This document shows positions 10,601 through 19,600 of a DNA stretch of 64,000 nt, piece after piece. The position numbers are program-made. Location: assembly GCF_003018115.1 (NCBI RefSeq), contig NZ_CP027457.1. One strand, given 5' to 3'. The first letter of the stretch is position 1; each line of letters begins with the position of its first letter. This DNA comes from Escherichia coli (GTDB lineage Bacteria; Pseudomonadota; Gammaproteobacteria; Enterobacterales; Enterobacteriaceae).

Positions 10601-13600
10601 ATCGACTGATCGATAAATTTCTGCATGATACCCACCAGTTGCAGGTAGCCATCGTTACCCGGCATTTCCCACAGCAGCTCATAGGCGTCGTGCAGATGCT
10701 CGTAGTCCGGCACTACCTGGCGCAGAATACCGTCTTTCGACGCTTTGATGCTGACGTAACCGCGCGGCGGTTCAATACCGTTAGTGGCGTTAGAGATCTG
10801 TGAAGAAGTCTCGGACGGCATCAGGGCAGAAAGCGTGGAGTTACGCAGACCGTGCGTTTTGATTGACTCACGCAGTGCTTCCCAGTCGTAATGCAGTGGT
10901 TCATTAGCGATGGCATCCAGATCTTTCTTATAGGTATCGATCGGCAGGATCCCTTTCGCGTAAGTGGTTTCGTTAAACCACGGGCACGCGCCTTGCTCTT
11001 TCGCCAGCTCATTAGACGCTTTCAGCAGGTAATACTGAATCGCTTCGAAGGTTTTATGCGTCAGGTTGTTGGCGCTGCCGTCGGAGTAACGTTTACCGTG
11101 CTTCGCCAGGTAGTAAGCGAAGTTGATCACACCAATACCCAGCGTACGACGACCCATCGCTCCACGTTTGGCGGCCGGGATCGGGTAATCCTGATAATCC
11201 AGCAGCGCGTCAAGTGCACGAACCGCCAGAATCGCCAGCTCTTCCAGTTCATCCAGGCTGTTAATTGCGCCCAGATTGAATGCAGACAGCGTACACAGCG
11301 CGATTTCACCGTTTTCGTCGTTGACGTCGTTCAGCGGTTTGGTCGGCAGGGCGATTTCCAGGCACAGGTTAGACTGGCGCACTGGCGCGATGGCCGGATC
11401 AAACGGGCTATGGGTATTGCAGTGGTCAACGTTCTGAATATAGATACGACCGGTAGACGCACGTTCCTGCATCATCAGCGAGAACAGCTCAACGGCTTTC
11501 ACACGCTGCTTGCGGATGCTGTCGTCTTTCTCATATTTGGTATACAGGCGTTCAAACTCTTCCTGATCGGCGAAGAATGCGTCGTACAGCCCCGGTACGT
11601 CGGACGGGCTGAACAGGGTGATATCTTCACCTTTCAGCAGGCGGGTATACATCAGTTTGTTGATCTGTACCCCGTAGTCCATATGACGCACGCGGTTGCC
11701 TTCCACCCCACGGTTGTTTTTCAACACCAGCAGGCTTTCAACTTCCAGATGCCACATCGGGTAGAACAGCGTTGCCGCACCGCCGCGCACACCGCCCTGA
11801 GAGCAGGATTTCACCGCTGTCTGGAAATGTTTGTAGAACGGAATACAACCGGTATGGAACGCTTCGCCACCGCGAATCGGGCTACCCAGCGCACGAATAC
11901 GCCCGGCGTTGATGCCGATCCCGGCACGCTGGGATACGTATTTAACAATCGCGCTGGAGGTGGCGTTGATGGAGTCCAGGCTGTCGCCGCACTCGATCAG
12001 TACGCAGGAGCTGAACTGACGAGTCGGGGTACGCACGCCGGACATGATTGGCGTCGGCAGCGAAATTTTAAATGTGGAAACCGCGTCGTAAAAACGCTTC
12101 ACGTATTGCAGGCGCGTTTCACGCGGGTAGTTCGAGAACAGGCACGCAGCAACCAGAATATAAAGGAACTGGGCGCTTTCGTAGATTTCGCCGGTCACAC
12201 GGTTCTGTACCAGATATTTGCCTTCCAGTTGCTTAACGGCAGCATAAGAGAAGGTCATATCACGGTCGTGATCGATAAACGTGTCCATCTGCTTGAACTC
12301 TTCTTCCGTGTAGTCTTCCAGCAGATGATTATCGTATTTGCCCATCTCGACCATTTTCACCACATGGTCATACAGCGCAGGCGGCTCAAACTGGCCGTAG
12401 GCTTTTTTACGCAGGTGGAAGATCGCCAGGCGCGCGGCGAGATACTGATAATCCGGCGCATCACGGGAGATCAGGTCTGCGGCAGCCTTGATAATAGTTT
12501 CGTGGATGTCAGAGGTCTTGATACCGTCATAAAACTGAATGTGGGAGCGCAGCTCGACCTGGGAAATCGAAACGTTATGCAGTCCTTCTGCCGCCCAATC
12601 CAGAACGCGATGGATTTTGTCGAGATTAATGCGCTCTGTGCTACCGTCGCGCTTTGTCACCAGCAGATTCTGATTCATGTATGTCGTACCTGTTTTTGGA
12701 ATTCTTTCCGCAATAGTTTCATGCAGACTACCTGTAGTACGGGAAGCTGCTTAGAACACTATATATAGGGGGTATGTTTGGGATTCACTGCAAGATAGTG
12801 TGAAAATGGCCCTCTTGCAAGTGCATAACTTTGTGGATAACTCAGGAAGGAAAAAGTGGCTTTCGCGCACCTTAGGTCAGACAAGGTGTCCGGGAAAGTC
12901 AATGGGAAGAGAAAAATTTGTTAAAAATAACTGTTCGGCGATTTCTTGAACGGCAGAATAGGTTGGATAAATTGATATAGATGGTTTATTAATCTTTTTG
13001 CTAATGATTGCAAAAATTGATCTAAGCACGAGTCATCACATAATCTGATGTATCAGTTGTGGTCAATATATAAGCGAATGTAAGCGATTGTTGATGTCGA
13101 AATGGTTGTTTTCTATTCGGTTATTGTTAAATGCGAAGCCATTTTGTTAATTTAGCTTATATTATAAGAAAATTATTCATTACTTTAATTTAGTTTAAAT
13201 ATAACTGGTATCCCTTAAGGTTATTAACTTGAATTATGACGCACTGATATTATTCATCAAATAATAACAAAATAGCCATTGCATCGGGTTGGACAATTTA
13301 CAAAAGAAAGATAACCCATATTGTATAATGCGTTTAAATATGCCGTTTTATATAAAATGATGGTCAGATTAATATGCGGATTATCTTTCTACGCAAGGAG
13401 TATTTATCTCTACTCCCGTCAATGATTGCATCTCTTTTCTCTGCTAACGGTGTCGCGGCGGCCATTGATTTATGCCAGGGATATGATATCAAAGCGAGTT
13501 GTCACGCCAGCAGGCAAAGCCTTTCAGGCATTACGCAGGTCTGGAGTATCGCCGATGGGCAATGGCTGGTTTTTTCGGATATGATCAATAATGCCAGCGG

Positions 13601-16600: not shown

Positions 16601-19600
16601 GCAGGGGGCCTGGCTGGATAACTGGTTGCAGTACGCGTGGTTTAGCAATGATGTTTCTGAACATGAAGATGGCGTGGATCATTACCATTCGTCGGGGATT
16701 ATCGCCTCGCTGGAAGCGGGGTATCAGTGGTTACCGGGGCGTGGTGTGGTGATTGAACCGCAGGCGCAGGTGATTTATCAGGGCGTGCAGCAGGATGATT
16801 TTACCGCCGCTAACCGTGCGCGCGTGTCACAATCGCAGGGTGATGATATTCAGACGCGGCTGGGTTTACACAGCGAATGGCGTACCGCTGTTCATGTCAT
16901 ACCAACATTAGATCTGAATTATTATCACGATCCCCATTCGACGGAAATTGAAGAGGATGGCAGCACTATCAGTGACGATGCGGTGAAGCAACGGGGTGAA
17001 ATAAAAGTGGGAGTCACGGGCAATATCAGTCAGCGAGTGTCCCTGCGCGGCAGCGTGGCGTGGCAGAAAGGGAGTGATGATTTTGCCCAGACGGCAGGGT
17101 TTTTGTCGATGACGGTGAAATGGTAATCGCTGTCTGACCATCACTATTGCCGGATGCGGCGTAAACGCCTTATCTGGCCTACGGAGAGCATTTGTAGGCC
17201 TGATAAGACGCGGCAAGCGTCGCATCAGGCATTGGCGCGGTTGCCGGATGAATCCAAACAACAACCTCACTTATTCTGCGTGTGCAACATATAGTTCACA
17301 TCCACACCGGGGCCGAGTTTAAAAGTATTAGTGATCGGGTTGTAATGTAGCCCGGTTATATGTCGCTCTTTAAGGCTTGTCTGATCTACCCAGCCAAGCA
17401 GCTCTGCCGGTTTAATAAACTTCTTCACATCATGCGTGCCTTTGGGCACCATGCGCAAAATATATTCCGCGCCAACCACCGCCATCAGCCATGACTTGCC
17501 GTTGCGGTTAAGCGTCGAGAAAAAGACATCGCCGCCTGGTTTCACCAGTTGCGCACAGGCTCTGACCACTGACTGCGGATCGGGTACGTGCTCCAGCATC
17601 TCCATGCAGGTCACCACATCATACTGCCCGGCATGTTTTGCCGCGTGCTCTTCCACGGTTTCCTGCACGTAATCCACCTGAATGCCGCTTTCCAGTGCGT
17701 GCAGTTTTGCCACCTGCAATGGCTCAAATCCCATATCCAGACCGGTCACCGTCGCGCCTTCGCGCGCCATACTCTCGGCCAGAATGCCGCCGCCACAACC
17801 GACATCGAGCACCTTTTTGCCAAATAAACCGCCAGCACGCTCGGCAATATAGCCCAGACGCAGCGGGTTAATGCGGTGCAGCGGTTTGAACTCACCTTCC
17901 AGATCCCACCAGCGGGAGGCGACGGCTTCAAATTTAGCGATCTCTTCGTGGTCTACGTTATGGTTTACCGGCGATTTTTCGGCATTCATTGGCACTTCTA
18001 CTCCGTAATTGGCAAGACAAACGAGTATATCAGGCATTGGATGTGAATAAAGCGTATAGGTTTACCTCAAACTGCGCGGCTGTGTTATAATTTGCGACCT
18101 TTGAATCCGGGATACAGTAGAGGGATAGCGGTTAGATGAGCGACCTTGCGAGAGAAATTACACCGGTCAACATTGAGGAAGAGCTGAAGAGCTCCTATCT
18201 GGATTATGCGATGTCGGTCATTGTTGGCCGTGCGCTGCCAGATGTCCGAGATGGCCTGAAGCCGGTACACCGTCGCGTACTTTACGCCATGAACGTACTA
18301 GGCAATGACTGGAACAAAGCCTATAAAAAATCTGCCCGTGTCGTTGGTGACGTAATCGGTAAATACCATCCCCATGGTGACTCGGCGGTTTATGACACGA
18401 TCGTCCGTATGGCGCAGCCATTCTCGCTGCGTTACATGCTGGTAGACGGTCAGGGTAACTTCGGTTCCATCGACGGCGACTCTGCGGCGGCAATGCGTTA
18501 TACGGAAATCCGTCTGGCGAAAATTGCCCATGAACTGATGGCCGATCTCGAAAAAGAGACGGTCGATTTCGTTGATAACTATGACGGCACGGAAAAAATT
18601 CCCGACGTCATGCCAACCAAAATTCCTAACCTGCTGGTGAACGGTTCTTCCGGTATCGCCGTAGGTATGGCAACCAACATCCCGCCGCACAACCTGACGG
18701 AAGTCATCAACGGTTGTCTGGCGTATATCGATGATGAAGACATCAGCATTGAAGGGCTGATGGAACACATCCCGGGGCCGGACTTCCCGACGGCGGCAAT
18801 CATCAACGGTCGTCGCGGTATCGAAGAAGCTTACCGTACCGGTCGCGGCAAGGTATATATCCGCGCCCGTGCTGAAGTGGAAGTTGACGCCAAAACCGGG
18901 CGTGAAACCATTATCGTCCACGAAATTCCGTATCAGGTGAACAAAGCGCGCCTGATCGAGAAAATTGCGGAACTGGTAAAAGAAAAACGCGTGGAAGGCA
19001 TCAGCGCGCTGCGTGACGAGTCTGACAAAGACGGGATGCGCATCGTGATCGAAGTGAAACGCGATGCGGTCGGTGAAGTGGTGCTCAACAACCTCTACTC
19101 CCAGACCCAGTTGCAGGTTTCTTTCGGTATCAACATGGTGGCATTGCACCATGGTCAGCCGAAGATCATGAACCTGAAAGACATCATCGCGGCGTTTGTC
19201 CGTCACCGCCGTGAAGTGGTGACCCGTCGTACTATTTTCGAACTGCGTAAAGCTCGCGATCGTGCTCATATCCTTGAAGCATTAGCCGTGGCGCTGGCGA
19301 ACATCGACCCGATCATCGAACTGATCCGTCATGCGCCGACGCCTGCAGAAGCGAAAACTGCGCTGGTGGCTAATCCGTGGCAGCTGGGCAACGTTGCCGC
19401 GATGCTCGAACGTGCTGGCGACGATGCTGCGCGTCCGGAATGGCTGGAGCCAGAGTTCGGCGTGCGTGATGGTCTGTACTACCTGACCGAACAGCAAGCT
19501 CAGGCGATTCTGGATCTGCGTTTGCAGAAACTGACCGGCCTTGAGCACGAAAAACTGCTCGACGAATACAAAGAGCTGCTGGATCAGATCGCGGAACTGT

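What the first reader, a model, noticed from the sequence alone, without database searches (positions are those of the whole stretch)
12679..17126. yfaL autotransporter: about 700-bp AT-rich leader and PDPDPT mini-repeat linker
The 695 bp between nrdA and yfaL are extremely AT-rich with long A/T tracts, typical of H-NS-bound silenced promoters, and could also hide small RNAs or small ORFs. Inside yfaL, 16128-16215 encodes a Pro-Asp-Pro-Thr mini-repeat (PEPDPTPDPDPTPDPDPTPDPAPTP) built from imperfect 18-bp units, a possible site of slipped-strand length variation in the linker.
Basis: seen in the sequence. Interest (0 to 1): 0.3.

Follow-up and report, generated by a model that had tools for sequence, protein, structure and literature searches.

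The report
yfaL adhesin: silenced promoter, variable linker
This is the well-known, normally silent E. coli adhesin gene yfaL with its already documented AT-rich, H-NS-bound upstream region. Its proline-rich linker does differ in length between strains, but that is an ordinary kind of surface-protein polymorphism.

Summary
nrdA (-) ends at 12678 and yfaL (+) starts at 13374, leaving 695 bp between them. This spacer has two parts. Positions 12679-12950 (42% GC) are the nrdAB regulatory region, with DnaA and HusR boxes and the doubtful small ORF ypaB. Positions 12951-13373 (28.6% GC) are the most AT-rich 400 bp in the 64-kb window. This part corresponds to the published yfaL/ypaB "promoter island", reported as H-NS-bound in K-12 by all the ChIP studies compiled in PMC3661553. 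I found no sRNA, no stable RNA fold and no conserved small ORF in the AT-rich core.

The linker (16128-16220, TPPSPPEPDPTPDPDPTPDPDPTPDPAPTPA) lies between the autochaperone domain and the translocator. In this allele the 18-bp units are only 67-78% identical, and repeat finders detect nothing.

Across Escherichia the linker has 22-38 residues, always in 2-residue steps, and it is the main indel site in YfaL. In one haplogroup (about 23% of complete genomes) a near-perfect 18-bp unit occurs 1, 2 or 3 times. In one pair of strains the copy number differs on an otherwise identical 6.2-kb background. All changes are in frame, and variants are rare.

Verdict: the locus and its regulation are already known. 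The linker length variation is real but slow, and resembles the pertactin repeat regions. Low interest.

The parts
10393..12678 (-). nrdA (class Ia ribonucleotide reductase alpha subunit), the divergent neighbour
   Evidence: ORF of 761 aa; annotated as nrdA in the matching RefSeq records.
12679..12950 (.). nrdA-proximal part of the spacer: the nrdAB promoter and regulatory region (41.9% GC)
   Evidence: Composition. Lowest diversity of the region (pi 0.017-0.024). Contains the DnaA boxes and HusR boxes.
12821..12840 (-). Two adjacent DnaA-box-like sites (TTATCCACA and AAGTTATGCAC)
   Evidence: Read directly on the minus strand. The homologous P1 segment is annotated as the 'E. coli DNA region containing two predicted DnaA boxes'.
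12876..12891 (+). HusR (YnfL) box CAGACAAGGTGTCCGG
   Evidence: The sequence matches the box listed for the ypaB/nrdA spacer in PMC12844172.
12806..12949 (+). ypaB, an annotated 47-aa ORF whose coding status is doubtful
   Evidence: Annotated as 'protein YpaB' in RefSeq. No Pfam or NCBIfam hit. The ATG is lost in B2 strains, and the P1/P7 copies diverge non-synonymously or by frameshift downstream of the DnaA boxes.
12951..13373 (.). AT-rich core (28.6% GC), corresponding to the H-NS-bound 'promoter island' upstream of yfaL
   Evidence: Composition. Nine sigma-70-like sites against 3.5 +/- 1.7 expected, all within 13017-13324. Length of 422-423 bp and GC of 27.5-29.3% are kept in 17 alleles. 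The K-12 counterpart is listed as a promoter island bound by H-NS.
13017..13044 (+). Promoter-like site TTGATC-16-CATAAT, the candidate yfaL promoter about 330 nt upstream of the ATG
   Evidence: Found by the scan. The same hexamers and spacing are listed for yfaL in the RpoD constitutive-promoter table of PMC3946193.
13374..17126 (+). yfaL/ehaC, an AIDA-I-family type Va autotransporter adhesin (1250 aa, intact)
   Evidence: Translation. NCBIfam NF007285 equivalog, 2783 bits. Pfam Chlam_PMP, PATR, AC_1, Pertactin and Autotransporter domains.
15753..16115 (+). Autochaperone domain at the C-terminal end of the passenger (residues 794-914)
   Evidence: Pfam AC_1 at residues 794-904 (E = 7.5e-18) and Pertactin at 812-914. 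Aligns to the AIDA-I 4MEE and IcsA autochaperone structures.
16128..16220 (+). Pro-rich linker TPPSPPEPDPTPDPDPTPDPDPTPDPAPTPA (four hexapeptide units)
   Evidence: It is an insertion relative to AIDA-I. It is the main indel site of the protein and varies in length among alleles.
16338..17057 (+). C-terminal beta-barrel translocator domain (residues 989-1228)
   Evidence: Pfam PF03797, E = 3.6e-32. TIGR01414 covers residues 808-1250.

Best explanation
The interval holds the cryptic E. coli autotransporter adhesin gene yfaL/ehaC and the divergent nrdA-yfaL control region.

1. The 423 bp next to yfaL (28.6% GC) is an H-NS-bound, promoter-dense, AT-rich block (a 'promoter island'). It keeps yfaL transcriptionally silent under ordinary growth. 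RNA polymerase can bind many promoter-like sites there, including TTGATC-16-CATAAT about 330 nt upstream of the ATG, but H-NS bound across the AT-rich DNA blocks productive transcription until counter-silencers act. The identity of the block and its H-NS occupancy are documented for the 97%-identical K-12 sequence. The silencing mechanism, and its operation in this strain, are inferred.

2. The 272 bp next to nrdA is the separate nrdAB regulatory region, with DnaA and HusR boxes. ypaB is probably just an open frame over those sites.

3. Inside YfaL, the PDPT-rich segment is a proline-rich spacer inserted between the autochaperone domain and the alpha-helix/beta-barrel translocator. Its likely role is a stiff tether at the mouth of the barrel (inferred). 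Its length changes in evolution by gain or loss of 6-bp and 18-bp units between short direct repeats, through replication slippage or unequal recombination (mechanism inferred). This gives in-frame alleles of 22-38 residues.

4. In the window's allele, synonymous differences have scrambled the DNA repeat, so this copy appears stable.
For: Gene identity and domains.

AT-rich core:
- It holds the lowest-GC 400-bp windows in 64 kb.
- Promoter-like sites are 9 against 3.5 +/- 1.7 expected, and all fall in 13017-13324.
- The K-12 counterpart differs by 3%. It is listed as promoter island 'yfaL/ypaB', 534 bp, bound by H-NS in all compiled ChIP studies (PMC3661553), and as an HNS-marked spacer with the promoter TTGATC-16-CATAAT (PMC3946193).
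- Experimenters inserted a constitutive promoter in front of yfaL to obtain its biofilm phenotype (PMC3764049). GadE/GadX are reported to regulate it (PMC4918353).
- Length (422-423 bp) and GC (27.5-29.3%) are preserved in 17 alleles, although the whole 695-bp spacer differs by up to about 10%.

Linker:
- Length classes of 26, 28, 34 and 36 aa occur in 17 complete genomes. Classes of 22-38 aa occur in 120 cluster representatives. Other Escherichia species have 26, 30, 34 and 36 aa.
- It has 7 length states, against 4 or fewer at any other site, in 122 distinct proteins.
- The -24-nt allele is a clean deletion between TCCyGATCC direct repeats.
- In the '...PDPIPA' haplogroup (about 1,220-1,250 of 5,426 genomes), the unit GACCCAACACCCGATCCT is present 1, 2 or 3 times.
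- Strain MDP9-27 (1 copy) and strain ST130 (2 copies) show 0 other differences over about 6.2 kb.
Against: - H-NS binding and silencing were not measured in this strain. I found no hns-mutant expression data for yfaL.
- The H-NS high-affinity motif is not enriched: one 1-mismatch and one 2-mismatch site in the core, and 74 against 58.9 +/- 7.6 over the whole window.
- No transcription start site for yfaL was available, so the '330-nt leader' is only a prediction.
- For the linker, the window's allele has no detectable DNA repeat. All 53 sampled alleles of the window's length have the same span.
- Copy-number variants in the repeat-bearing haplogroup are rare: at least 5 three-copy and at least 2 one-copy genomes, and at most about 35 of 1,254 non-standard matches.
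- The spacer function is untested, and structure prediction failed (pLDDT 27).
Confidence: 0.78

Rival explanations
1. The AT-rich spacer is mainly a long regulatory 5' leader, or hides a small RNA or small protein gene, rather than being an H-NS silencing platform.
For: A promoter-like site identical to the published yfaL constitutive promoter lies about 330 nt upstream of the ATG, so a long leader is possible. The length of the core is strikingly constant (422-423 bp in 17 alleles). ypaB is annotated in the spacer, and its mRNA is reported to respond to HusR.
Against: There is no Rfam match in 12500-13373 at E <= 1. The putative leader folds no better than shuffled sequence (z = -0.42). No ORF of 30 aa or more lies wholly within the core; the largest inside are 20-23 aa. 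Sequence diversity in the core (pi 0.04-0.08) is higher than in the nrdA regulatory part. ypaB lies outside the AT-rich core, loses its ATG in B2 strains, and diverges non-synonymously in the P1/P7 copies.
Confidence: 0.1
2. The linker length classes are just old, fixed allelic differences produced by rare ordinary indels and spread by recombination. There is no elevated or ongoing slippage, and length has no functional meaning.
For: Each length class goes with its own haplotype and identity level. The window-type allele shows no length variants among 53 sampled rows of its own length. Codon scrambling leaves at most 8 nt of exact repeat. The same -18-nt haplotype sits on different passenger backgrounds, which indicates recombination.
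Against: The near-perfect 18-bp unit is found in 1, 2 or 3 copies. One-copy alleles occur on two different flanking backgrounds (PPSPP and PPLPP). One 1-copy/2-copy pair is otherwise identical over 6.2 kb. The linker has more length states than any other site in YfaL.
Confidence: 0.3
3. The repeat is a contingency (phase-variation) locus that switches YfaL on and off by frameshifting.
For: It is a short-unit repeat inside a surface adhesin gene, which is the classic setting. Other E. coli adhesins, such as Ag43, are phase variable by other means.
Against: Every observed length difference is a multiple of 6 nt (+6, -18, -24, +/-18) and all alleles stay in frame. Units are 18 bp, not 1-5 bp. Inactivation in the sampled strains is by IS insertion or stop codons elsewhere in the gene.
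Confidence: 0.02

Closest known systems
YfaL/EhaC of E. coli K-12 and O157:H7 (AIDA-I-family type Va autotransporter adhesin)
   Same: It is the same gene at the same locus (nrdA-ypaB-yfaL-ubiG-gyrA). It gives an equivalog-level NCBIfam match over residues 1-1250 and has the same domain order and the same 34-residue linker class as K-12 and O157.
   Different: It is a mosaic allele, and its best full-region match among 5,426 complete genomes is 98.7%. The linker carries E and A substitutions (PEPDPT...PDPAPT) shared with FDAARGOS_943.
E. coli 'promoter islands' bound by H-NS (Panyukov & Ozoline 2013, PMC3661553)
   Same: The K-12 counterpart of 12951-13373 is one of the 78 listed islands (yfaL/ypaB, 534 bp). 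Like the islands, it has a high density of promoter-like sites and is very AT-rich. The islands are described as H-NS-occupied with low transcriptional output.
   Different: Here only a simple consensus scan was run, not PlatProm. Occupancy and transcriptional output were not measured for this strain.
Pertactin proline-rich repeat regions R1 (GGxxP) and R2 (PQP) of Bordetella
   Same: Both are short proline-rich repeats in an autotransporter passenger whose copy number differs between alleles on a slow, population-level timescale (PMC8931430). YfaL also matches the Pfam Pertactin domain just upstream of the linker.
   Different: The repeat unit differs (PDPT/DPDPTP). The resemblance is by analogy, not by alignment. 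No immune-selection evidence exists for YfaL, and the position is after the autochaperone domain, directly before the translocator helix.
AIDA-I transport unit (PDB 4MEE)
   Same: It has a homologous autochaperone, alpha-helix and beta-barrel (E = 1.1e-34, aligned over residues 59-494 of the 500-residue query).
   Different: AIDA-I has a short junction with only two prolines where YfaL has the 31-residue Pro-rich insert.

Membership tests
YfaL/EhaC (AIDA-I-family type Va autotransporter) | Full-length match to the curated equivalog model, above its cutoff | tested here: met
   NF007285 scores 2783.5 bits against a cutoff of 1459, covering residues 1-1250 of 1250.
YfaL/EhaC (AIDA-I-family type Va autotransporter) | C-terminal beta-barrel translocator domain | tested here: met
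   PF03797 at residues 989-1228, E = 3.6e-32. TIGR01414 at residues 808-1250, E = 6.5e-113. Homology to the AIDA-I structure 4MEE.
YfaL/EhaC (AIDA-I-family type Va autotransporter) | Repeat-rich beta-helical passenger ending in an autochaperone domain | tested here: met
   Chlam_PMP and PATR repeats, AC_1 at 794-904, and Pertactin at 812-914.
YfaL/EhaC (AIDA-I-family type Va autotransporter) | N-terminal Sec signal peptide | not tested
   The N-terminus MRIIFLRKEYLSLLPSMIASLFSANGVAAA|IDL looks like a signal peptide with an AxA site, but no predictor was run.
YfaL/EhaC (AIDA-I-family type Va autotransporter) | Conserved chromosomal position between nrdA and ubiG | tested here: met
   The gene order is the same in all fetched E. 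coli loci. ubiG is adjacent in E. albertii, E. whittamii and Escherichia sp. E1V33.
H-NS-bound promoter island / xenogeneic-silencing target | 300 bp or more with an abnormally high density of promoter-like sites | tested here: met
   Nine sites against 3.5 +/- 1.7 in dinucleotide-preserving shuffles, all in 13017-13324. This used a simple scan, not the PlatProm criterion of the original definition.
H-NS-bound promoter island / xenogeneic-silencing target | AT content far above the genome background | tested here: met
   28.6% GC against 51.9% for the window; the lowest 400-bp windows of 64 kb lie here.
H-NS-bound promoter island / xenogeneic-silencing target | H-NS occupancy in vivo | not testable with these tools
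   Published for the K-12 counterpart, which differs by 3%: 'A = all studies' in PMC3661553 Table 1, and HNS in the PMC3946193 table.
H-NS-bound promoter island / xenogeneic-silencing target | Derepression of the downstream gene when H-NS is removed | not testable with these tools
   No hns-mutant data for yfaL were found in the searchable library. The only indirect evidence is the use of an inserted constitutive promoter to obtain the yfaL phenotype.
H-NS-bound promoter island / xenogeneic-silencing target | Enrichment of the high-affinity H-NS motif TCGATAAATT | tested here: inconclusive
   One 1-mismatch site (12964) and one 2-mismatch site (13015) in the core. Over the whole window, 74 against 58.9 +/- 7.6 expected.
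VNTR / slipped-strand variable repeat | Head-to-tail DNA repeats of high identity | tested here: not met
   In the window allele the units are 12-14/18 identical, and TRF and the repeat finder report nothing. The feature is met in the '...PDPIPA' haplotype of other strains, where the core units are 17/18 identical.
VNTR / slipped-strand variable repeat | Copy number differs between closely related strains | tested here: met
   This is met in another haplogroup: 1, 2 or 3 copies, and 0 other differences in 6.2 kb between a 1-copy and a 2-copy strain. It was not seen among 53 sampled alleles of the window's length.
Phase-variable contingency locus | Repeat changes shift the reading frame or promoter spacing, giving an on/off switch | tested here: not met
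   All length differences are multiples of 6 nt, and all alleles stay in frame.
Pertactin-like polymorphic Pro-rich repeat region | Short Pro-rich repeat in an autotransporter passenger with allelic variation in repeat number | tested here: met
   16 prolines in 31 residues. Alleles of 22-38 residues in 2-residue steps. The comparison with pertactin rests on PMC8931430; it is an analogy, not homology of the repeat.

The most novel reading that the evidence does not exclude
The YfaL linker may be a tunable stalk. Under this reading, alleles of 22-38 residues adjust how far the passenger projects from the barrel relative to the LPS/O-antigen or capsule layer. Lineages would alternate between a 'reset' state with a near-perfect 18-bp repeat that can gain or lose units, and a 'frozen' state (as in this window) in which synonymous scrambling has locked the length. 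I found no paper that links yfaL to tandem repeats.
Probability: 0.12. Interest if true: 0.4.

Novelty: already known. Interest (0 to 1): 0.18.

Why it matters
It matters little beyond housekeeping. It confirms that a sequence-only reader can recognise an H-NS-type silenced promoter region and a length-variable surface-protein linker. The practical points are modest:
1. The nrdA-yfaL spacer should be treated as two functional halves.
2. ypaB is probably not a real gene.
3. YfaL allele comparisons and adhesin typing should expect in-frame linker lengths of 22-38 residues.
4. One haplogroup carries a genuine small VNTR. It could serve as a minor typing marker, or as a test case for how synonymous divergence stabilises coding repeats.

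Tried and rejected
- Tandem Repeats Finder (minimum score 30) and the repeat finder (seeds of 6 and 8) on the window linker found nothing.
- An Rfam scan at E <= 1 on 12500-17300 found only sub-threshold REP/naRNA4-like hits downstream of yfaL and chance-level hits. There was nothing in the spacer.
- The RNA fold of the putative 5' leader (13051-13390) gave z = -0.42.
- The H-NS motif scan was not informative.
- Pfam and NCBIfam gave no hit for YpaB.
- AlphaFold2 on residues 791-1250 with a 13-row, closely related alignment failed (mean pLDDT 27). I did not use it and relied instead on the sequence alignment to AIDA-I 4MEE.
- I checked whether the linker is a known generic E. 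coli MLVA locus such as CVN002. The papers read give no locus positions, and the reported allele numbers (0-18) do not fit, so this stays unresolved.
- Counting 1-copy alleles by BLAST was not possible, because 2-copy genomes give tied two-piece matches.
- A motif scan of 100,044 species-representative genomes found yfaL only in Escherichia, plus one contaminant contig. This tests one exact peptide motif only, so absence elsewhere is not proven.

Full report
**What is there**

The interval 12679-17126 lies between nrdA (minus strand, 10393-12678) and ubiG. It contains a 695-bp spacer followed by one 1250-codon ORF at 13374-17126. The ORF matches the NCBIfam equivalog 'AIDA-I family autotransporter adhesin YfaL/EhaC' over its full length (2783 bits, cutoff 1459).

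Its Pfam architecture is Chlam_PMP and PATR repeats, an autochaperone domain (AC_1 at residues 794-904, Pertactin at 812-914) and the beta-barrel domain (989-1228). The region is present in 5,425 of 5,426 complete E. coli genomes, with the same neighbours: nrdA, ypaB, yfaL, ubiG and gyrA. The best full-region identity is only 98.7%, and the parts of this allele resemble different strains, so it is a mosaic.

**The AT-rich spacer**

- The nrdA-proximal 272 bp (12679-12950) is 41.9% GC and is the least variable stretch of the region (pi about 0.02). It holds two DnaA-box-like sites (12821-12840, minus strand) and the HusR boxes reported for the ypaB/nrdA spacer.
- The yfaL-proximal 423 bp (12951-13373) is 28.6% GC. 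The lowest-GC 400-bp windows of the whole 64 kb lie here, about 4.6 sd below the mean.

A simple sigma-70 scan finds nine promoter-like sites where dinucleotide-preserving shuffles give 3.5 +/- 1.7. All nine fall between 13017 and 13324. One of them, TTGATC-16-CATAAT at 13017-13044 reading toward yfaL, has the same hexamers and spacing as the constitutive promoter listed for yfaL by Shimada et al. That table also marks the yfaL<>nrdA spacer 'HNS' (PMC3946193).

Panyukov and Ozoline list 'yfaL/ypaB', 534 bp, among the 78 E. coli K-12 'promoter islands'. They code it as H-NS-bound in all the ChIP studies they compiled (PMC3661553). The K-12 spacer differs from this one by 3%.

The use of an inserted constitutive promoter to obtain the yfaL biofilm phenotype is consistent with it (PMC3764049), as is the reported regulation by GadE/GadX (PMC4918353). 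I found no direct hns-mutant expression data for yfaL, so the silencing step itself remains inferred.

Across 17 divergent alleles, the core keeps its length (422-423 bp) and composition (27.5-29.3% GC), while the whole spacer differs in sequence by up to about 10%. That pattern fits selection on physical or compositional properties rather than on a specific sequence.

**Is anything hidden in the spacer?**

Rfam gives nothing in the spacer at E <= 1. The putative 340-nt leader folds no better than shuffles (z = -0.42). No ORF of 30 aa or more lies wholly within the AT-rich core.

The only annotated small gene, ypaB (12806-12949, 47 aa), lies in the nrdA-proximal part and has no family match. 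B2 strains have lost its ATG. The homologous ORFs in phages P1 (upfO) and P7 are identical only over the DnaA boxes, and then diverge non-synonymously or by frameshift. Conservation there is best explained by regulatory DNA.

**The linker in this window**

Residues 919-949 (16128-16220) read TPPSPPEPDPTPDPDPTPDPDPTPDPAPTPA. This segment holds 16 of the protein's 32 prolines. It sits directly after the autochaperone domain and before the segment that aligns with the AIDA-I translocator unit. AIDA-I (PDB 4MEE) has only a short junction at this point, so the segment is a YfaL-specific insert.

Its four 18-bp units are 12-14/18 identical, and almost all differences are at third codon positions. 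The longest exact direct repeat is 8 nt, and repeat finders detect nothing.

**Linker length across strains**

| Sample | Residues between DWYLRS and YQP/YKP |
|---|---|
| 17 complete E. coli genomes | 34 (this window, K-12, O157, CFT073), 36, 28, 26 |
| 120 representatives of 90% protein clusters | 22, 24, 26, 28, 34, 38 |
| E. albertii, E. whittamii, Escherichia sp. E1V33, an E. coli species representative | 34, 30, 26, 36 |

All steps are multiples of two residues. In an alignment of 122 distinct YfaL proteins, the linker has 7 length states, against 4 or fewer at any other position.

The -24-nt allele is a clean deletion between TCCyGATCC direct repeats, and matches at 99% or better in 178 genomes.

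The most telling case is the '...PDPIPA' haplogroup, found in about 1,220-1,250 of 5,426 genomes. There the unit GACCCAACACCCGATCCT is nearly perfect.
- Two copies is the usual state.
- One copy occurs in MDP9-27 and AB66, on different flanking variants.
- Three copies occur in five genomes.
- MDP9-27 (one copy) and ST130 (two copies) show no other difference over about 6.2 kb, which points to a recent event.

Variants are nevertheless rare: at most about 35 of 1,254 matches are non-standard. All 53 sampled alleles of the window's length have the same span, and six more sampled rows carry the +6-nt allele.

The linker therefore does change by unit gain and loss, but slowly. It depends on how well the DNA repeat is preserved, and it never shifts the frame. 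It is not a phase-variation switch.

**Mechanism and comparison**

The best-supported picture has two parts. The first is an H-NS-coated, promoter-dense AT-rich block that keeps a genus-specific adhesin gene silent. The second is a proline-rich tether whose length drifts by slippage or unequal recombination between short repeats.

The closest analogue for the linker is the R1/R2 proline-rich repeat regions of Bordetella pertactin. Their repeat number differs among alleles on a slow timescale (PMC8931430). The resemblance is functional, not by alignment. yfaL is also reported to be under positive selection (PMC9110714), which agrees with the very high passenger diversity seen here (pi up to 0.18).

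**Novelty and verdict**

The gene, its cryptic status and the H-NS-bound promoter island are already known. I found no paper that links yfaL to tandem repeats, so the small VNTR in one haplogroup may be undescribed. It is an ordinary kind of polymorphism and is not a property of the allele in this window.

A structural prediction to show the linker geometry failed for lack of alignment depth (pLDDT 27). Interest is low.

Noticed in passing
window 12802-12931: The nrdA-upstream segment with the DnaA boxes and most of ypaB is 83-95% identical to a segment of phages P1, P7 and SJ46, and to 235 places on E. coli plasmids. The one plasmid I inspected is P1-like. In P1 the segment overlaps upfO, just upstream of hot (a DNA polymerase III theta homologue). 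The P1 record already notes the similarity to the E. coli DnaA-box region.
   Followed up: partly
window 17136-17280: REP-like elements between yfaL and ubiG match Rfam naRNA4 below its gathering score (43.7 and 40.4 bits against 59.5). This short spacer differs by large indels between strains (80 gap columns in the 17-strain alignment).
   Followed up: no
yfaL in other strains (L002, L016; hits H8, H9): yfaL is interrupted by IS5, IS3 or IS1 insertions, or carries an internal stop, in several complete genomes. The gene is therefore repeatedly lost, although it is intact in this window.
   Followed up: no
window 13570-15660 (passenger domain): Nucleotide diversity in the passenger domain is very high (pi 0.09-0.18 in a spread sample of 17 alleles, with B2 alleles about 24% divergent). 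Different parts of the gene cluster the strains differently, which indicates old allelic lineages shuffled by recombination.
   Followed up: partly
window 36850-37600: The second most AT-rich stretch of the window (about 32-36% GC) is the ompC-rcsD intergenic region, where micF lies. It is another spacer marked HNS in the same published table.
   Followed up: partly
L026 (NZ_VLXZ01000332.1, 252 nt): A 252-nt contig with coverage 0.84 in an Alkalicoccobacillus porphyridii assembly encodes a YfaL fragment 95% identical to this one. It is almost certainly E. coli contamination of that assembly.
   Followed up: no
window 14988-15041 (YfaL residues 539-556): A second, weaker indel site lies in the passenger: 4 length states among 122 proteins, including a 13-residue deletion in strain EC1.
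   Followed up: no
window 12951-13373: The AT-rich core keeps an almost invariant length (422-423 bp, one 1-bp indel) across alleles whose whole 695-bp spacers differ by up to about 10%. This is unusual for A/T-tract-rich non-coding DNA and is not explained here.
   Followed up: partly
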